Sequence record: OR896831.1
DNA from: Escherichia phage BubbaBully
Length of the DNA stretch: 51,209 nucleotides
Strand: one strand, 5' to 3'
In this document: positions 15,516 through 36,559 of the stretch, in pieces
Position numbering within the stretch: position 1 is the stretch's first letter
How the letters are laid out: every line of letters begins with the position of its first letter
Made by a program: the position numbers and the translations under genes
Notes under the pieces: generated by a model
What the model was told of the DNA's origin: nothing
The model's input: only the letters and a program-made list of their open reading frames with translations
Database searches by the model: none

Positions 15516-18500
15516 ATGGCTAAAAATGTGATAAGCGGCAGTAAAGGCGGTTCATCAAAACCGTATGTGCCAAAGGAAATGGAAGATAACCTGATTTCGA
15601 TAAACAAAATCAAGATCTTACTTGCTGTTTCCGATGGTGAGTGCGACGAAACGTTTTCATTACGTGACCTGTATCTTGATGACGTTCCGGTTATGAATGA
15701 CGATGGCACTTATAACTATAGCGGCGTTTCGGCTGAGTTCAGGCCAGGGACTCAAGATCAAGATTACATCCAGGGATTCACTGACACCTCAAGCGAAATA
15801 ACAGTGTCGCGAAATCTTGAAACAGACACGCCATATGTGATTGCAGTAACCAACAAAAACCTATCTGCGATCAGAATAAAAATTCTTATGCCTACTGGTG
15901 TAAAGCAAGAGGACAACGGCGATCTCGTTGGTGTAAGCGTAACATATGCCGTTGATATGGCTGTTGATGGCGGCTCATACAATGAGATTTTGAGCGACAC
16001 GATAAGCGGTAAAACTCGCAGCGGTTACGACAGAAGCCGCCGAATTGATTTACCAGCTTTTAACGAGCAAGTATTGTTGCGCGTTCGCCGTGTTACTCCT
16101 GATAGCACATCGGCAAAGGTTACGGATCTGATTAAGTTGCAGAGCTACGCGGAAGTTGTAGACGCTAAATTTCGTTATCCGCTGACAGGTCTTGTTTATG
16201 TGGAATTTGATTCCGAGTTATTCCCGAACCAGATCCCACGAATAGCGGTAAAAAAGAAATGGAAGATCATAAACGTTCCGAGTAATTACGATCCTGTTTT
16301 GCGTGAATACCACGGCGCGTGGGATGGAACCTGGAAAAAAGCATGGTCTAACAATCCGGCTTACATCTTACACGATTTGATAACCAATCAGCGATACGGA
16401 CTAGATCAACGTGAGTTGGGAATTCCACTTGATAAGTGGAGCATTTACGAGGCTGGGCAATATTGCGATCAGATGGTTCCAGATGGAAAAGGCGGAACAG
16501 AGCCGCGTTACCTTTGCGACGTTGTGATCCAAAGCCAGATTGAAGCATACCAGCTTGTAAGGGATATTTGTTCAATCTTCCGTGGAATGAGTTTCTGGAA
16601 CGGTGAGAGCCTTTCAATTGTCGTTGATAGGCCGCGCGAGCCGTCTTACATCTTCACAAATGATAACGTTGTTAATGGTGATTTTAGCTACACATTCGCC
16701 AGCGAAAAGAGCATGTATACACAATGCAATGTGACTTTCGACGACGAACAAAACATGTATCAACAGGACGTTGAAGGGGTTTTTGAAACGGAGGCGGCGT
16801 TACGGTTTGGCTACAATCCAACGAGCATTACAGCGATTGGATGCACACGACGCAGCGAAGCAAACCGCCGCGGGCGATGGGTTCTGAAAACCAACTTGCG
16901 CAGCACAACGGTAAACTTTGCAACAGGTCTTGAGGGCATGATCCCGTCAATCGGTGATGTGGTGGCGATTGCGGATAACTTCTGGAACAGCGCATTAACG
17001 CTCAACCTTTCGGGGCGCGTTATGGAGGTATCCGGTCTGCAAGTTTTCCTACCGTTTAAAGTAGATGCGCGGCCAGGCGATTTCATCATGGTAAATAAGC
17101 CAGATGGGAAGCCAGTAAAACGCACCATTGCCAACGTGAGCGCAGACGGAAAAACCATTGAGCTAAACATAGGTTTTGGCTTTGACGTTCAGCCCGATAC
17201 GGTGTTTGCGATTGACCGCACAGATATTGCATTGCAGCAATACGTTGTAACGACAATCACAAGAGGAGACAACGATGACGAGTTTACTTACTCAATCACC
17301 GCTGTTGAATACGATCCGAACAAATACGACGAGATTGATTACGGCGTTAACATCGACGACAGGCCAACAAGCATTGTGCAACCGGACGTAATGCAACCTC
17401 CAGAGAATGTTGCCGTTTCCTCTTACTCTCGCATTGTTCAGGGTGTTAGCGTTGAAACGATGGTTGTTAGCTGGGATAAAGTGCCTTACGCGAGCTTATA
17501 CGAGGTTCAATGGAGGAAAGACAACAGCAACTGGTTAAACGTCCCACAGACGGCAAACAAAGAGATTGAGGTGGAGGGGATTTACGCTGGAGTTTATTAC
17601 GTTCGCGTGCGATCCGTTTCTGCTTCCGGCTCTACGTCGCCCTGGTCTGGAATAGTTACCGCATCGCTGACGGGTAAAGTTGGCGAGCCTGGGAAGCCTA
17701 TAAACCTTACTGCATCAACAAATGAGGTTTTCGGAATCCGCGTTAAATGGGGAATGCCAGATGGAACCGGAGACACGGCCTATATTGAGTTGCATCAATC
17801 ACCAGATGGAACGGCTGAAAACTCAAGCCTTTTAACGCTTGTCCCATATCCGCAGTTTGAATACTGGCACAGCACGTTACCAGCGGGGAAAGTTGTGTGG
17901 TATCGCGTGCGAAGTGTTGACAGGATCGGCAACGTTTCCGGTTGGTCTGATTTTGTGCGCGGCATGGCTTCCGATGATGTGACAGATATCATTGGCGACA
18001 TTTTAGATGACATCTGGAATACGGAGGGCGGAAAGGAAATCAAGGAAAACGCCATTGACAGCGCAAACAAGATTAAGGATCAGGCACAAAGCATCATTCA
18101 AAACGCACTGGCGAATGATACGGACGTTAGGATCATGAGGAAGGAAAACGGAAAGCGCAAAGCCGAATTTAGGCAATCAATCCAATTGATCGCAGATGAA
18201 ACGGAGGCTCGCGTTACCGCAATGACGCAACTCAAGGCTGAATTTGACGAGGAGATCACTAGCGAAGTAACGAGACTTGATCAGGCAATTGCAACAGAAT
18301 CAGAAACGCGAGCAACAGCTATTGAGGAATTGAAATCACAGATTGGTGATGATATCCAGGGGCAGTTAACGCGAGTTGAGGAGGCGATTGCAAACGAAAC
18401 AGAGGCGCGTGTTTCTGCTGATACGGCATTAACAGCAAAGTTTGGCGATGTTGAATCAGCGCTGACTGAAAAACTTGATTCATGGGCTGGCGTTAATGGA

Positions 18501-18941
18501 GTTGGCGCACAGTACGCAATGAAATTGGGATTGACCTACAACGGGCAGAAGTACAGCGCCGGAATGGTCATGCAGTTATCAAACAGCCCTCAAGGGTTGA
18601 TTTCACAAATCCTGTTTGATGCCGGAAGATTTGCGATCATGACGAGTTCGACGGGCGGAACGTATACATTGCCTTTTGTGGTGGAGAATAACCAAGTTTT
18701 CATTAACAGCCTGTTAGTGAAAGACGGTTCAATCACAAACGCCATGATCGGTAACTTCATCCAATCAAACAACTACGTTTGGAACCAATCAGGATGGAGG
18801 CTGGATAAAAACGGAACGTTTGAAAACTATGGCTCTACTCCTGGCGAGGGCGCTATGAAAATGACAAACGAAACGATCAGCGTTAGGGATGCAAACGGCG
18901 TTTTGCGTGTTCAGATTGGACGTATTACAGGTTATTGGTAA
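15516..18941 (+). CDS. host specificity protein J (central tail fibre / tip)
   Basis: About 1140 aa; N-terminus (SKGGSSKPYVP...) resembles lambda J; last gene of tail tip module. Confidence 0.85.
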   Translation: MAKNVISGSKGGSSKPYVPKEMEDNLISINKIKILLAVSDGECDETFSLRDLYLDDVPVMNDDGTYNYSGVSAEFRPGTQDQDYIQGFTDTSSEITVSRNLETDTPYVIAVTNKNLSAIRIKILMPTGVKQEDNGDLVGVSVTYAVDMAVDGGSYNEILSDTISGKTRSGYDRSRRIDLPAFNEQVLLRVRRVTPDSTSAKVTDLIKLQSYAEVVDAKFRYPLTGLVYVEFDSELFPNQIPRIAVKKKWKIINVPSNYDPVLREYHGAWDGTWKKAWSNNPAYILHDLITNQRYGLDQRELGIPLDKWSIYEAGQYCDQMVPDGKGGTEPRYLCDVVIQSQIEAYQLVRDICSIFRGMSFWNGESLSIVVDRPREPSYIFTNDNVVNGDFSYTFASEKSMYTQCNVTFDDEQNMYQQDVEGVFETEAALRFGYNPTSITAIGCTRRSEANRRGRWVLKTNLRSTTVNFATGLEGMIPSIGDVVAIADNFWNSALTLNLSGRVMEVSGLQVFLPFKVDARPGDFIMVNKPDGKPVKRTIANVSADGKTIELNIGFGFDVQPDTVFAIDRTDIALQQYVVTTITRGDNDDEFTYSITAVEYDPNKYDEIDYGVNIDDRPTSIVQPDVMQPPENVAVSSYSRIVQGVSVETMVVSWDKVPYASLYEVQWRKDNSNWLNVPQTANKEIEVEGIYAGVYYVRVRSVSASGSTSPWSGIVTASLTGKVGEPGKPINLTASTNEVFGIRVKWGMPDGTGDTAYIELHQSPDGTAENSSLLTLVPYPQFEYWHSTLPAGKVVWYRVRSVDRIGNVSGWSDFVRGMASDDVTDIIGDILDDIWNTEGGKEIKENAIDSANKIKDQAQSIIQNALANDTDVRIMRKENGKRKAEFRQSIQLIADETEARVTAMTQLKAEFDEEITSEVTRLDQAIATESETRATAIEELKSQIGDDIQGQLTRVEEAIANETEARVSADTALTAKFGDVESALTEKLDSWAGVNGVGAQYAMKLGLTYNGQKYSAGMVMQLSNSPQGLISQILFDAGRFAIMTSSTGGTYTLPFVVENNQVFINSLLVKDGSITNAMIGNFIQSNNYVWNQSGWRLDKNGTFENYGSTPGEGAMKMTNETISVRDANGVLRVQIGRITGYW

Positions 18942-18947
18942 AAGCAA

Positions 18948-18973
18948 AGGGAGGCGCATTGCCTCCCTTTTTT
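18948..18973. terminator. bidirectional terminator hairpin at convergent junction
   Basis: AGGGAGGC/GCCTCCCT stem flanked by A-run and T-run. Confidence 0.6.
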
Positions 18974-18974
18974 A

Positions 18975-19631
18975 TTAGTCATATTTTGATGCGTCTATAG
19001 CAAGTATTGATGAAGAATAATAAACCCCAAGCGGCCCAGGCGTTTGAGCCACCTGCTTTGATATTGAGTAAATATTTGATCCAGATGCGCCGGATTGTGA
19101 TTCAAATATCATGTGACCTCCAAGTTGAGGGTTTGGAACGGAGTTTATTGCCGTTTGAAATGGCGTTACAGCGCATGTGTAACCCAAATGAACATCAAAT
19201 GTTATTCCGCTAACTGGTATTTGGTGAGCCTCTAAAGGCTTCATTTTTCCGTGGTATGTCATTTGACCAGCAGAATTATAAAAAGCTATTCCGTGACTCC
19301 CAGGACTTGTTACCATATCGCTAAAAGCGTAAACCCTAATCCATCCAGGGTTGTCCGTCCTATCAATTCTAAGTGCATGATAACCACCATTGTTTATTTG
19401 AGAAAATGCAGTGTATGCACGCGATCCCATTCTCACAAAGAAAAAGCATACCCGATCAAATGGTATTGATGTTTGATAAATGGAACCGTTATAAACACCC
19501 ATATCACCGCGATTAATTAAATTAACAGGCGTAAAATCAGGACTTAGCCAAATTGACCCATCCGGCTTTGTGATCTGCATTCCGTACATGTTACCCCCAA
19601 AACGTATATATATATCTTGACTCGCCAGCAT
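18975..19631 (-). CDS. hypothetical protein (possible C-terminal part of a receptor-binding protein)
   Basis: 218-aa ORF; its 5' end overlaps the upstream ORF in another frame at a (TA)5 tract. Confidence 0.45.
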   Translation of the reverse strand: MLASQDIYIRFGGNMYGMQITKPDGSIWLSPDFTPVNLINRGDMGVYNGSIYQTSIPFDRVCFFFVRMGSRAYTAFSQINNGGYHALRIDRTDNPGWIRVYAFSDMVTSPGSHGIAFYNSAGQMTYHGKMKPLEAHQIPVSGITFDVHLGYTCAVTPFQTAINSVPNPQLGGHMIFESQSGASGSNIYSISKQVAQTPGPLGVYYSSSILAIDASKYD

Positions 19632-19866
19632 TAAGACCAGACCACGAAACAGTATTCCCGCTAACGTTTATTGTTGGCGCTCCCCAATTAACGCCAGCCC
19701 ACGTCTGCGTTCCAATATATCCAGCCTTTAATGTCTTGCCTGGCGGCTGATTGTAATATGTCTTGCTTCCTGATGGTTGTGTGAATCTATCCAAGAAGAA
19801 TACAGGAGTTAATAAACCAGTAACATCCCTTCCTTGTTCGTCGTAAATTGCGTAACCGTATGCCAT
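19591..19866 (-). CDS. hypothetical protein (possible N-terminal part of the same protein)
   Basis: 91-aa ORF translationally coupled (TAATG) to the Cor-like gene; ends just after a (TA)5 tract. Confidence 0.45.
   Translation of the reverse strand: MAYGYAIYDEQGRDVTGLLTPVFFLDRFTQPSGSKTYYNQPPGKTLKAGYIGTQTWAGVNWGAPTINVSGNTVSWSGLNAGESRYIYTFWG
19605..19614. repeat. (TA)5 dinucleotide tract at the frame junction of the two ORFs
   Basis: TATATATATA lies in the 41-bp overlap of ORFs 19591-19866 and 18975-19631. Confidence 0.6.
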
Positions 19867-20132
19867 TATTTACACCTCACATCATAGAAATATTCTGATG
19901 GTTGCCACCTGTTAACAAAGCGAACGCTTTTATTATCAGCGCTCATGCGGTATTGCTTTTGACCGAATCGGTTTTCGCGAACGCCGCTAATATTTACTTC
20001 ATAAGCGCCAGCGACGACAAAGGTCTTTATGTCGTATTTCGCCGTGCATTCGACCTCTCTGAAATTTCCCGTCGCAGGTGCGCCGCAACTGCTCAGGAGT
20101 GCCGCGGCGATTAAAGCCGCAAATCTTTTCAT
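19866..20132 (-). CDS. cor: outer-membrane lipoprotein, Cor/Llp-like superinfection exclusion candidate
   Basis: 88 aa with lipoprotein signal and lipobox (LLSSC); first gene of the leftward unit next to receptor-binding-like ORFs. Confidence 0.55.
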   Translation of the reverse strand: MKRFAALIAAALLSSCGAPATGNFREVECTAKYDIKTFVVAGAYEVNISGVRENRFGQKQYRMSADNKSVRFVNRWQPSEYFYDVRCK

Positions 20133-20564
20133 AATTAATTCCTCGCTTCATTAGTGAGTAATAACAATACCATAAATGGAGATTATTTCACAACCAAAAT
20201 CATCTTTGTTCTTTTTGTTTCTCGTTGTTCACGACAGCACCCACCGTAGAATCGCGCAACGTTTTAGAACAGAAAAAACAAAATAAATCATCTATAATAT
20301 ATAATAAAATCAATAGTTTAGTTTATATGTATTTGTATATTGTTATTTATTGTTTCCACTGTTTCAGTGTTAATTGATGTATTGGCTTGCTTTCGTCTGG
20401 ATATCTCTATTAGCCATTTTATGTGTGTATTTGTACAAACCCCACCGCAAATCCGTGAACAATGAAACAGAAAATAACGACGTTTAAAATCATGCACTTA
20501 AGCGCTGATTTTGTTATCTAGGTGGAAAGATGCGTTTCGAGAACAGAAAAAACAATTGATGGTA

Positions 20565-35454: not shown

Positions 35455-35670
35455 ATGAGAGAATTTTTAAACGCAGCAACTACAGGAACCGGAGGCGCAT
35501 CATTGACGGGAGCGGCGACGGGGCAAATGACAATCGCGGTTGCTGGTCTTATCCTAATGGCGGCTTTTGGTTTTTGGGGCGCTTATCTGCGCTGGAAGGA
35601 TAGCAAGGCGCTGCGAGAGGCTTTGGATCGTGAAGATATCAAAGAGGCAATTAGAATCAGGGGGAAATAA
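35455..35670 (+). CDS. holin (pinholin-like)
   Basis: 71 aa from ATG 35455 (AAGGAG RBS); two hydrophobic segments and charged C-terminus; immediately upstream of SAR endolysin. Confidence 0.6.
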
Positions 35671-35672
35671 TC

Positions 35673-36167
35673 ATGAGTTTACAGAGGAGCGCGGCATACG
35701 CTTTATTTGGCGCAGCGCTCTCGTTGACTCCTCCGCTCCTGGAGGAGATCGAGGGCATTCGCTACAAGCCATATAAAGATATCGCTGGAGTCTGGACGGT
35801 CTGCGCGGGTATTACCGGATCTGATGTTGTGCTGGGTAAGACGTACACGCAGAGAGAATGTGATGCACTTCTTGCCAAGCATATCGGGATTGCAAAGGCA
35901 GAAGTCGATAAGAGAGTGAAGGTTGAGATCCCGGACACAATGAGGGCGGCGATGTATAGCTTCACTTACAACGCTGGCACTGGAGCGTTTCGCAAGTCAA
36001 CCATGCTCAAGAAGATCAACAATGGTGATCTTTATGGAGCGTGCGACGAGCTTTGGAAATGGACGTATTATTACAATCCAAAAACGGGCAAGCGCGAGAA
36101 GTCCAAAGGACTAAAAAACCGTCGCGCGGTTGAGTACAAATATTGCACTAAGGATCTGAAAAAATGA
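35673..36167 (+). CDS. SAR endolysin (GH24 lysozyme)
   Basis: T4-lysozyme-like catalytic pattern EGxRxKxYxD...T; N-terminal weakly hydrophobic signal-anchor-release-like segment. Confidence 0.75.
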
Positions 36168-36559
36168 AACGATTAGCTTTGGCGGTACTGGTTGCCGCCT
36201 CTCTTTCTGGTTGTTCAGCGTCAAGCGCTCTGAGTGATCTTATCGGCAGCAAGCCGGAAATCACAGCACAGGCCGGATCCGAAAACGTAAAGCAGACAGT
36301 AGGCGTTACGGCTAAAAATGACGAGAGCAGCAAGCAGGAAAACACGATCAAGGATTCGCAGGTTGGAAAGGTTGACTCCTCCAACAAAAAGAAAGTGAGC
36401 ACATCAAGCATCCAGGCTGAGACAATCACAGCCGACAAGATCGAGATCAGAAACAGCGATAGTGATTTGTATGTGATGTTCTTTGCGCTGGCTTGCTTTT
36501 TTGTTGCTGGCTTTGCGGCTGGCGTTGTTTGGAATTGCAGAAAAAATAAAGGGGCATAA
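36164..36559 (+). CDS. unimolecular spanin
   Basis: 131 aa with N-terminal lipobox (LSGCS) and C-terminal transmembrane helix; last gene of lysis cassette. Confidence 0.65.

What the first reader, a model, noticed from the sequence alone, without database searches (positions are those of the whole stretch)
19866..20132. Cor-like lipoprotein encoded as first gene of the leftward unit
An 88-aa lipoprotein (lipobox LLSSC) lies at the head of the short leftward unit, next to the putative receptor-binding ORFs. This matches the known pairing of a receptor-blocking lipoprotein (Cor, Llp) with receptor-binding genes in FhuA-type phages. It predicts superinfection exclusion by receptor inactivation and hints at an outer-membrane transporter as receptor.
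Basis: partly seen in the sequence, partly recalled or inferred. Interest (0 to 1): 0.4.

Follow-up and report, generated by a model that had tools for sequence, protein, structure and literature searches.

The report
Receptor-blocking lipoprotein aimed at BtuB
This T1-like coliphage encodes a small outer-membrane lipoprotein, distantly related to the Cor and Llp exclusion proteins, next to its receptor-binding genes; it most likely shuts off the phage's receptor, and that receptor is the vitamin B12 transporter BtuB, not FhuA: an ordinary, already recognised kind of module.

Summary
An 88-codon ORF at 19866-20132 (-) encodes a lipoprotein (lipobox L-S-S-C). It heads a three-gene leftward unit that converges on the gpJ tail-tip gene.

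The protein is a divergent member of the Cor/Llp superfamily:
- PHROG 1119 matches at E=6e-5.
- A profile-profile match of the mature domain to Cor scores 25.6, against a maximum of 18.5 in 200 shuffles.
- The match to the BtuB-blocking Llp of BF23-type phages scores 22.1, against a shuffle maximum of 15.3.
- The three cysteines are conserved.
- All three cassette genes fall in the same PHROGs as T1 gp32, gp31 and Cor.

It fails the curated Cor model (NCBIfam NF047972), has no Pfam hit and lacks Cor's RAGYPF motif.

The receptor inference is wrong in detail. The window is phage BubbaBully (CPL00172), whose published genome-wide screens give btuB as the top hit. Its two neighbouring genes are 100% and 99% identical to those of BtuB-dependent Bas06.

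The likely function is superinfection exclusion by binding BtuB from the periplasm. This is inferred, not tested.

One further point: a recombination breakpoint separates the lipoprotein gene (48% identical to Bas06's) from the receptor-binding genes.

Verdict: new member of a known kind, low-to-moderate interest.

The parts
19866..20132 (-). Gene for an 88-aa prolipoprotein, the putative BtuB-directed superinfection-exclusion (receptor-blocking) protein. The mature form has 73 aa starting at lipidated Cys16. Cys29 and Cys87 are predicted to form a disulfide.
   Evidence: ORF listing and sequence. 36 homologues with invariant C16, C29 and C87. PHROG 1119 at E=6e-5. Profile-profile matches to Cor and to BF23-type Llp. 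AF2 model with mean pLDDT 79, five beta strands.
20085..20132 (-). Signal peptide (aa 1-15) and lipobox L13-S14-S15-C16 (nt 20085-20096). The residue after the Cys is Gly, not Asp, so outer-membrane sorting by Lol is expected.
   Evidence: Read directly from the sequence. No family member has Asp at +2. The sorting rule is established E. coli knowledge.
20140..20144 (-). Shine-Dalgarno sequence GAGGA, 7 nt before the ATG.
   Evidence: Sequence.
20164..20171 (-). Candidate extended -10 element: TG at 20171-20172, one base (G), then hexamer TATTGT at 20164-20169. It lies 32-37 nt upstream of the ATG. A poor -35 (TTGTGA) sits 18 nt further upstream.
   Evidence: My own scan. A -10-like hexamer lies at the same offset upstream of the Bas06, Bas04 and haarsle lipoprotein genes and of T1 cor, although the sequences are otherwise unalignable. 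It falls below the threshold of the consensus scan. Inferred only.
19591..19866 (-). Second gene of the unit: a 91-aa protein (PHROG 557, the family of T1 gp32 / N15 gp22). It is a receptor-binding accessory protein or part of the receptor-binding complex. Its start overlaps the lipoprotein stop (TAATG).
   Evidence: 100% amino-acid identity to Bas06 QXV82278.
18975..19589 (-). Third gene: a 204-aa protein (PHROG 425, the family of T1 gp31 / N15 gp23), a bona fide receptor-binding protein candidate of the BtuB-type locus. The ORF could start 14 codons earlier, at 19631; the start used here matches the homologues.
   Evidence: 99% amino-acid identity to Bas06 QXV82277. Bas06 and this phage depend on btuB.
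18946..18970 (.). Stem-loop (11 pairs, 6 G-C) with an A run on one side and a T run on the other. It is a likely bidirectional terminator shared by the gpJ unit and the leftward unit.
   Evidence: This is a consensus match, not proof of function.
19870..19900 (.). Recombination breakpoint inside the cassette, at the 3' end of the lipoprotein gene. To its right-hand side on the minus strand (18900-19885) the DNA is 93-100% identical to Bas06. The lipoprotein gene and its upstream region are about 40-55% identical to Bas06 but 75-100% identical to metagenomic phages L006 and L007.
   Evidence: Sliding-window identity. Protein identities: lipoprotein 48%, 91-aa 100%, 204-aa 99%.
15516..18941 (+). 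gpJ-like tail-tip gene on which the cassette converges. It gives the context for the receptor-binding locus.
   Evidence: 69% identity to T1 gp33 over 1174 aa.

Best explanation
The gene encodes a small outer-membrane lipoprotein of the Cor/Llp superfamily that serves as this phage's receptor-blocking (superinfection-exclusion) factor. Its predicted target is BtuB, the TonB-dependent vitamin B12 transporter that this phage uses as terminal receptor.

Proposed course of events:
1. The prolipoprotein is exported. It is lipidated at Cys16, its 15-residue signal peptide is removed, and Lol sorts it to the inner leaflet of the outer membrane (Gly at +2).
2. Its roughly 70-residue beta domain, stapled by a Cys29-Cys87 disulfide, binds the periplasmic face or plug of BtuB.
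3. As shown for T5 Llp on FhuA, this locks the transporter in a state whose extracellular loops no longer accept the phage's receptor-binding protein.
4. Infected cells and their debris then stop adsorbing this phage and other BtuB-dependent phages, and probably BtuB-dependent colicins and B12 uptake.

Shown here: the ORF and its lipobox, family conservation, remote homology to Cor and to BtuB-blocking Llp, the cassette context, and BtuB dependence of this very phage (from the literature).

Inferred: lipidation and sorting, the disulfide, binding to BtuB, the periplasmic site and allosteric mechanism, and the exclusion phenotype.
For: - Lipoprotein features and position.
- It is one of only two lipobox ORFs in the window; the other is the spanin.
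- The same three-gene cassette is conserved in relatives.
- C16, C29 and C87 are invariant in 37 sequences.
- Homology to Cor: PHROG 1119 at E=6e-5, with 35 of 37 members hitting it, best 7.5e-12. hhalign over the full length gives 98.2% probability. For the mature domain only, the score is 25.6 (E=6e-5), against a column-shuffle mean of 9.6, sd 2.1 and maximum 18.5.
- Homology to BF23/DT57C-type Llp, which experimentally blocks BtuB phages (PMC4728585). The mature-only score is 22.1, against a shuffle maximum of 15.3. The aligned segments carry shared C-T-x-x-K-(T/S)-F and VR..RF motifs. That Llp is itself in PHROG 1119.
- The whole cassette falls in PHROGs 557, 425 and 1119, like T1 gp32, gp31 and Cor.
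- Receptor: the window is BubbaBully CPL00172, and btuB is the top RB-TnSeq hit in both replicates. The RBP genes are 99-100% identical to BtuB-dependent Bas06.
- Mechanistic precedent: the FhuA-Llp crystal structure and the suggestion that the mechanism extends to other TonB-dependent transporters (PMC9586334); Rtp45 on LptD.
- The KanT1 paper already reports Cor-like hits in BtuB-using Tempevirinae (PMC13164509).
- The closest backbone relative, N5822, carries an unrelated small ORF with a lipobox-like FSSC motif in the same slot. This fits a pattern of one putative blocker per receptor cassette.
Against: - No experiment exists for this subfamily. Exclusion and BtuB binding are inferred.
- Much of the sequence signal comes from the signal peptide. 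hhalign probability falls from 98% to 65% (Cor) and 30% (BF23 Llp) once it is removed.
- The protein has no Pfam hit.
- It does not hit the curated NCBIfam Cor model. The Bas06 allele reaches 19.5 bits against a cut-off of 31.
- Cor's invariant AGYPF motif is absent.
- The gene is co-oriented and translationally coupled with the receptor-binding genes. This differs from T1 and T5, where the blocker is a separate unit, and leaves its expression timing open.
Confidence: 0.7

Rival explanations
1. One reading: a Cor-type lipoprotein that inactivates FhuA, in a phage that uses FhuA.
For: Remote homology to Cor. The neighbouring genes are in the same PHROGs as the FhuA-cassette genes of T1, N15 and HK022.
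Against: - btuB, not fhuA, is the top RB-TnSeq hit for this phage.
- The RBP genes are 99-100% identical to BtuB-dependent Bas06.
- FhuA-using Drexlerviridae such as Bas05 carry a T1-type Cor (56% identical to T1 Cor).
- The window has no tblastn match to T1 Cor, gp31 or gp32.
Confidence: 0.03
2. An exclusion lipoprotein that acts at a later step than receptor binding. For example, it could block DNA transit through the periplasm or inner membrane, or target a co-factor such as DcrB or SdaC, rather than BtuB itself.
For: - The lipoprotein allele recombines independently of the RBP alleles, so it need not be matched to them.
- Bas06-type phages need sdaC and dcrB as well as btuB.
- Cor's own mechanism has no solved structure, and Cor was reported to need other outer-membrane proteins (reference cited).
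Against: - The closest experimentally characterised relatives (Cor, BF23-type Llp, T5 Llp) all act on the outer-membrane receptor.
- Gly at +2 predicts outer-membrane sorting.
- This phage's own screen shows no sdaC or dcrB dependence.
- Independent recombination is equally expected if both partners bind opposite faces of the same receptor, as argued for DT57C.
Confidence: 0.1
3. An accessory factor for host recognition (assembly, folding or specificity of the receptor-binding complex) rather than an exclusion protein.
For: It is co-transcribed and translationally coupled with the two receptor-binding-locus genes. [quoted passage not shown]
Against: - A lipidated, exported protein is separated from cytoplasmic virion assembly.
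- The allele differs by 52% from Bas06's, while the RBP proteins are identical. This argues against a tight physical partnership.
- It is homologous to blockers, not to chaperones.
Confidence: 0.05
4. A lysis-related lipoprotein (an o-spanin-like component).
For: A few family members give weak PHROG hits to Rz-like spanins (E about 0.005-0.007). These are probably due to the lipoprotein signal.
Against: The window has a complete T1-like lysis cassette with its own spanin lipoprotein at 36164..36559. The gene lies in the receptor-binding locus, 16 kb away. It has no proline-rich or coiled-coil features.
Confidence: 0.02

Closest known systems
Cor of phage T1 / phi80 / N15 / HK022 (phage exclusion lipoprotein Cor; PHROG 1119; NCBIfam NF047972)
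   Same: - Both are small (73-80 aa versus 88 aa) lipoproteins with lipobox-Cys and two further conserved Cys, one about 9-13 residues after the lipid Cys in a C-T-A-x-Y context and one 2-3 residues from the C-terminus.
- Both are encoded beside the genes downstream of gpJ.
- The neighbouring genes are homologous (PHROGs 557 and 425).
- The profile-profile match covers the whole mature domain.
   Different: - It is below the curated NCBIfam cut-off.
- It lacks the invariant AGYPF motif and has about 10 extra residues there.
- The receptor of the carrying phage is BtuB, not FhuA.
- The gene is first in one operon with the RBP genes on the strand opposite gpJ. In T1 the RBP genes follow gpJ and cor stands alone on the opposite strand.
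Llp (receptor-blocking protein) of BF23 / DT57C-type T5-like phages, which blocks BtuB
   Same: - Same length (88 aa), a lipoprotein, also in PHROG 1119.
- The carrying phages use BtuB.
- Shared motifs in the first half of the mature protein (C-T-x-x-K-T/S-F, Y-x-V/L-x-I, VR..RF) and a C-terminal ...F....C-K.
- A recombination breakpoint between the blocker and RBP genes is also documented there.
   Different: - There is no BLAST-level similarity.
- The significant profile alignment covers only about 32 columns.
- The partner RBP (Hrs/pb5-like, about 590 aa) is unrelated to the 91-aa and 204-aa proteins here.
- The llp and RBP genes are divergent there, not co-oriented.
Llp of phage T5 (PDB 8A60, FhuA-Llp complex)
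   Different: - The target is FhuA.
- The structural match is weak and not specific: rank 52 among SH3/Tudor-like barrels.
- Foldseek does not find it.
Rtp45 / Bas18_0026 superinfection-exclusion lipoproteins of LptD-targeting small siphoviruses
   Same: They occupy the same genomic slot (the RBP locus downstream of gpJ in Drexlerviridae and Dhillonvirus). They follow the same logic: a small periplasmic lipoprotein alters the extracellular loops of the receptor.
   Different: They have a different receptor (LptD, not a TonB-dependent transporter), and act by steric displacement rather than allostery. Sequence relatedness was not tested here.

Membership tests
Cor (phage exclusion lipoprotein Cor) | Type II signal peptide with lipobox; small size (about 70-90 aa) | tested here: met
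   MKRFAALIAAALLSSC, 88 aa.
Cor (phage exclusion lipoprotein Cor) | Score above the curated family threshold (NCBIfam NF047972, cut-off 31 bits) | tested here: not met
   No hit for the window protein at E<=10. The Bas06 allele scores 19.5 bits and T1 Cor 55.8 bits. There is no Pfam family either.
Cor (phage exclusion lipoprotein Cor) | Detectable homology of the mature domain (not only the signal peptide) | tested here: met
   Mature-only hhalign of A5 against the Cor alignment: score 25.6, E=6e-5, 54 columns end to end. 200 column shuffles gave mean 9.6, sd 2.1, maximum 18.5. PHROG 1119 at E=6e-5, with 35 of 37 family members matching.
Cor (phage exclusion lipoprotein Cor) | Invariant (R)AGYPF motif of Cor proteins | tested here: not met
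   A54, G55, Y56, P57 and F58 are invariant in 11 Cor sequences. The aligned region of the window family reads R-x-S/A-x-x-x-K-x-V-x-F, with an insertion.
Cor (phage exclusion lipoprotein Cor) | Two conserved Cys besides the lipid Cys (intramolecular disulfide) | tested here: met
   C29 and C87 are invariant in 37 sequences and align with Cor C25 and C73. The disulfide itself is inferred; it is reported for Llp/Cor in PMC9586334.
Cor (phage exclusion lipoprotein Cor) | Encoded next to homologues of N15 gp22/gp23 (T1 gp32/gp31), downstream of gpJ | tested here: met
   The 91-aa protein hits PHROG 557 at E=5e-22 and the 204-aa protein hits PHROG 425 at E=1.7e-44. T1 gp32 and gp31 hit the same PHROGs. 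The order and orientation differ.
Cor (phage exclusion lipoprotein Cor) | Excludes FhuA-dependent phages; the carrier phage uses FhuA | tested here: not met
   The carrier phage depends on btuB. The exclusion phenotype cannot be tested with these tools.
BF23-type Llp (BtuB-blocking lipoprotein of T5-like phages) | Sequence homology to BF23/DT57C Llp | tested here: inconclusive
   Full-length hhalign gives 95.6% probability. Mature-only hhalign scores 22.1, E=5e-4, over 32 columns, against a shuffle maximum of 15.3. There is no tblastn match.
BF23-type Llp (BtuB-blocking lipoprotein of T5-like phages) | Carrier phage uses BtuB; the gene is adjacent to the RBP gene | tested here: met
BF23-type Llp (BtuB-blocking lipoprotein of T5-like phages) | Expression lowers plating of BtuB-dependent phages | not testable with these tools
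   Shown for DT57C Llp (PMC4728585). No data exist for this protein.
T5 Llp fold (PDB 8A60 chain B) | Structural similarity of the mature domain | tested here: inconclusive
Rtp45-type LptD-directed exclusion lipoproteins | Sequence or structural relatedness | not tested
   Only the analogous genomic position and logic are noted.

The most novel reading that the evidence does not exclude
The Drexlerviridae BtuB-cassette lipoproteins form a bridging subfamily. They tie T1-type Cor (FhuA) and BF23-type Llp (BtuB) into one ancient family of lipoproteins that jam TonB-dependent transporters. T1 Cor and BF23 Llp show no mature-domain similarity to each other (score 8.2), yet both match this family.

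The motifs shared only with BF23-type Llp (K-T/S-F ... VR..RF) would then mark the BtuB-plug-binding surface. The very divergent lipoprotein alleles (48% identity) riding on identical receptor-binding genes would reflect selection on the blocker itself, independent of the phage's own adsorption. Such selection could favour a different exclusion spectrum against rival BtuB phages or colicins, or adaptation to BtuB or TonB variants of Enterobacter/Klebsiella-like hosts of the backbone lineage.
Probability: 0.25. Interest if true: 0.45.

Novelty: new member of a known kind. Interest (0 to 1): 0.25.

Why it matters
The gene gives a concrete candidate for the BtuB-directed exclusion factor of T1-like phages. 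No member of this subfamily has been tested or solved.

It corrects a receptor prediction. Cassette homology to T1's cor locus does not imply FhuA. The allele of the receptor-binding genes decides the receptor, and here both genetics and sequence identity say BtuB.

The breakpoint between the blocker and the receptor-binding genes shows that the two halves of the module can be exchanged as long as both address the same receptor. This is useful for engineering receptor-swapped phages and for receptor-prediction models. The published model made no call for this phage.

Practically, such a lipoprotein could protect production strains from BtuB-dependent phages. It could also serve as a probe of BtuB plug dynamics.

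Tried and rejected
- Pfam scan of the three cassette proteins: nothing.
- NCBIfam scan: no Cor hit for the window protein.
- Pairwise BLASTP to T1 Cor: only the signal peptide and the C-T-A-x-Y motif align.
- Pairwise BLASTP of the neighbours to T1 gp31 and gp32: not significant. The relationship shows only at profile level.
- Word-indexed protein search: 4 hits with the single sequence, 25 with an alignment, none from the Cor family.
- Exhaustive HMMER search of 1.84 billion representatives: only 20 hits at E<=0.001, so the family is small. The long proteins among them match only short stretches and were ignored.
- Foldseek against the PDB: no significant hit.
- Consensus promoter scan: no minus-strand promoter above threshold upstream of the gene, and counts do not exceed shuffles.
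- Spanin role: rejected, because the lysis cassette with its own spanin lies elsewhere.
- FhuA as target: rejected on genetic data for this phage.
- T1 Cor against BF23 Llp, mature domains only: no signal (score 8.2). The full-length hhalign probabilities are therefore inflated by signal peptides and were not taken at face value.

Full report
**1. What is in the sequence**

The product begins MKRFAALIAAALLSSCGAP. This is a textbook type II signal peptide with lipobox L-S-S-C, and a GAGGA ribosome-binding site lies 7 nt before the ATG.

The residue after the lipid cysteine is Gly. By the established E. coli +2 rule this predicts sorting to the outer membrane, and no homologue has Asp there.

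The gene is the first of three co-oriented genes:
- the lipoprotein gene;
- a 91-aa gene at 19591..19866, whose ATG overlaps the lipoprotein stop as TAATG;
- a 204-aa gene at 18975..19589.

Upstream there are 490 bp of non-coding DNA and then a divergent exonuclease VIII gene. Downstream the unit runs head-on into the gpJ-like tail-tip gene (15516..18941). In between lies a stem-loop at 18946..18970, flanked by an A run and a T run, that could terminate both units.

A pattern search for signal peptide plus lipobox over all six frames finds only two such ORFs in the 51 kb. The other is the spanin of a complete T1-like lysis cassette at 36164..36559.

**2. Which phage, and which receptor**

The window is a T1-like siphovirus (Drexlerviridae, Tempevirinae). 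Its left half is most similar to Enterobacter phage N5822 (88% identity over 92% of the query), Klebsiella phage Samwise and Bas10/Bas11. These are genus Henuseptimavirus in the records and table read (N5822; Bas10/Bas11); the Samwise record was not read.

An exact look-up of the lipoprotein finds it as WWD12610.1 of Escherichia phage BubbaBully (CPL00172), on a contig of 51,209 nt, which is the length of the window. That phage is part of a published set of genome-wide screens (bioRxiv 10.64898/2026.04.02.716166):
- Its table lists the receptor as BtuB.
- The RB-TnSeq hit list shows btuB as the hit in both replicates (fitness 6.2 and 14.3). LPS-heptose genes and yrfF appear only in replicate 1, and fhuA is not among the listed hits.

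Sequence comparison says the same independently. The 91-aa and 204-aa proteins are 100% and 99% identical to those of Bas06 (KarlJaspers). Bas06 is BtuB-dependent in the BASEL table and in RB-TnSeq. Bas04, which carries a more distant allele of the same cassette, is also BtuB-dependent.

FhuA-dependent relatives such as Bas05 carry a T1-type Cor instead. The window has no tblastn match to T1 Cor, gp31 or gp32.

**3. Is the lipoprotein Cor-like?**

At the level of curated families it is not:
- It has no Pfam hit.
- It has no hit to NCBIfam NF047972, 'phage exclusion lipoprotein Cor'. That model scores T1 Cor at 55.8 bits and the Bas06 allele at 19.5 bits, against a cut-off of 31.
- Pairwise BLASTP to T1 Cor aligns little more than the signal peptide.

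At the level of remote homology it is:
- PHROG 1119 (Cor) matches at E=6e-5, and 35 of 37 family members match it, the best at 7.5e-12.
- A 25-sequence family alignment against an 11-sequence Cor alignment (T1, N15, HK75, mEp390, ES18 and others) gives hhalign probability 98.2% over the full length.

Signal peptides inflate such scores, so I removed them. The mature-domain comparison still aligns end to end over 54 columns, with both cysteines in register. The score is 25.6 (E=6e-5), while 200 column shuffles of the Cor alignment gave mean 9.6, sd 2.1 and maximum 18.5. The homology is therefore real but distant. Cor's invariant AGYPF motif is replaced by a longer, different segment.

Context adds support. 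The two neighbouring proteins fall in PHROGs 557 and 425, the same families as T1 gp32 and gp31, which sit between gpJ and cor. The whole three-gene cassette is thus a diverged, rearranged counterpart of the T1/N15/HK022 cor cassette.

**4. Relation to the BtuB blocker of T5-like phages**

BF23/DT57C-type Llp is an 88-aa lipoprotein. When expressed, it lowers plating of BtuB-dependent phages but not of T5 (PMC4728585). It also belongs to PHROG 1119.
- Against the window family it gives hhalign probability 95.6% over the full length.
- Mature-only, using a four-sequence Llp alignment, it scores 22.1 (E=5e-4) over 32 columns, against a shuffle maximum of 15.3.
- The aligned segment carries C-T-x-x-K-(T/S)-F, Y-x-V/L-x-I and VR..RF. 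By eye, both proteins also end in F....C-K.

T1 Cor and BF23 Llp show no mature-domain signal with each other (score 8.2). The window family therefore sits between them.

**5. Structure**

AF2 with the 25-sequence alignment gives mean pLDDT 79 (above 83 beyond residue 20) and five beta strands.
- Foldseek finds nothing significant in the PDB.
- In BFVD the three significant matches are lipoproteins of Providencia and Proteus phages (E=8e-6 to 1e-4, TM 0.59-0.68). I take these from memory, not from a check here, to be T5-like. Fourth is the 'receptor-blocking protein' of Yersinia phage phiR2-01 (E=0.037). That protein is itself a BF23-type Llp homologue in a Demerecviridae phage.

This is consistent with an Llp-like small barrel but not diagnostic. 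The authors of the FhuA-Llp structure noted that AF2 models of free Llp are inaccurate.

**6. Most likely mechanism**

By analogy with solved and tested relatives, the protein is exported, lipidated at Cys16 and sent to the inner leaflet of the outer membrane. Its disulfide-stapled domain binds the periplasmic face of BtuB, so that the extracellular side no longer accepts the receptor-binding protein.

The precedents are Llp on FhuA, which acts by 'reverse allostery' (a mechanism the authors proposed to be general for TonB-dependent transporters), and Rtp45 on LptD. Infected cells and debris would stop adsorbing this and other BtuB phages.

Every step after 'it is a lipoprotein of this family in a BtuB phage' is inference. 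I put the overall explanation at about 0.7.

The idea is already in the literature. The BASEL papers describe exclusion factors in these loci. The KanT1 paper reports Cor-like HMM hits in BtuB-using Tempevirinae and concludes that the Cor/Llp mechanism extends to other receptors.

**7. A detail worth recording**

The cassette is a mosaic. From 18900 to about 19885 the DNA is 93-100% identical to Bas06. From about 19900 onward, covering the lipoprotein gene and its upstream region, identity to Bas06 falls to about 40-55%. There the best matches are metagenomic phages L006 and L007 (75-100%), whose own receptor-binding genes are only 62-75% identical at protein level.

So the lipoprotein (48% identical to Bas06's, at most 60% to anything in the phage genome collection, 94% to a metagenome sequence) and the receptor-binding genes have different histories. 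The breakpoint lies at the gene boundary.

The same was described for hrs and llp in DT57C. The explanation there was that any blocker and any binder of the same receptor remain compatible. This fits a blocker that touches the receptor, not the RBP.

**8. Differences from the textbook arrangement**

In T1 the two RBP-locus genes follow gpJ on the same strand, and cor stands alone on the opposite strand. Here all three genes are on the opposite strand, with the lipoprotein first and translationally coupled.

In phage SaltyDalty the same cassette follows the tail gene on the same strand. The cassette therefore moves as a unit.

Expression timing is open. A -10-like hexamer sits 32-37 nt upstream of the ATG here (TGgTATTGT), at the same offset in Bas06, Bas04 and haarsle, and upstream of T1 cor. 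It is below the threshold of the consensus scan.

**9. Verdict**

It is a new, quite divergent member of a known kind of system. It is of modest interest, mainly as an untested BtuB-directed blocker and as an example of recombination within the module.

Noticed in passing
window 19870-19900: There is a recombination breakpoint inside the receptor cassette. The RBP genes are 93-100% identical in DNA to Bas06. The lipoprotein gene and its upstream region are only about 40-55% identical to Bas06, but 75-100% identical to metagenomic phages L006 and L007. This mirrors the hrs/llp breakpoint reported for DT57C.
   Followed up: yes
whole window; window 18975-19866: The published receptor-prediction study lists this phage (CPL00172) with receptor BtuB but RBP 'Unknown', and its model made no prediction. 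Yet the two RBP-locus proteins are 99-100% identical to those of Bas06, a training phage. The study's k-mer features may sit in parts that differ here, such as the lipoprotein or the gpJ C-terminus.
   Followed up: partly
whole window (host factors): Bas06 screens pick up sdaC and dcrB besides btuB. The listed hits for this phage include btuB (plus LPS-heptose genes and yrfF in one replicate) but not sdaC or dcrB. The RBP-locus proteins are nearly identical, so the SdaC/DcrB requirement may be encoded elsewhere, for example in the tape measure or gpJ.
   Followed up: no
L023 2129-2380 (Enterobacter phage N5822), equivalent to window ~19866-20132: The closest whole-genome relative has a completely different gene set between gpJ and exonuclease VIII. 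It includes an unrelated 83-aa ORF starting MKIKLLAIAMIMFSSC, which has a lipobox-like FSSC motif (PHROG 2243), in the same slot and orientation. This fits one putative small lipoprotein per receptor cassette.
   Followed up: partly
window 1-25000 versus 18900-19885: The backbone is Henuseptimavirus-like (N5822 88%, Bas10/Bas11 about 85-89%; Bas10 and Bas11 use YncD). The RBP genes match a Hanrivervirus (Bas06). This is a clear case of horizontal exchange of the receptor module between genera.
   Followed up: partly
window 20164-20172 and equivalents in L001, L003, L004, L005: A -10-like hexamer lies at a fixed distance (32-37 nt) upstream of the lipoprotein start codon in otherwise unalignable upstream regions, including T1 cor. 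It may be a dedicated promoter for the blocker.
   Followed up: partly
window 35455-36559: A T1-like lysis cassette (holin, endolysin, spanin) is present. The spanin at 36164..36559 is the only other lipobox ORF in the window.
   Followed up: partly
GenBank records MG065643, MG065649, MG065657, MG065680, MG065681: Records labelled 'Campylobacter phage' (host C. jejuni) carry this coliphage-type BtuB cassette at 94-98% nucleotide identity. The host labels look doubtful.
   Followed up: no
L012 2426-3578 (Escherichia phage SaltyDalty, 36.9 kb): The same lipoprotein / 91-aa / 205-aa cassette follows the tail-tip gene on the same strand in a different, smaller phage that carries a UmuD-like gene nearby. 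The cassette therefore travels beyond Drexlerviridae and can be inverted relative to gpJ.
   Followed up: no
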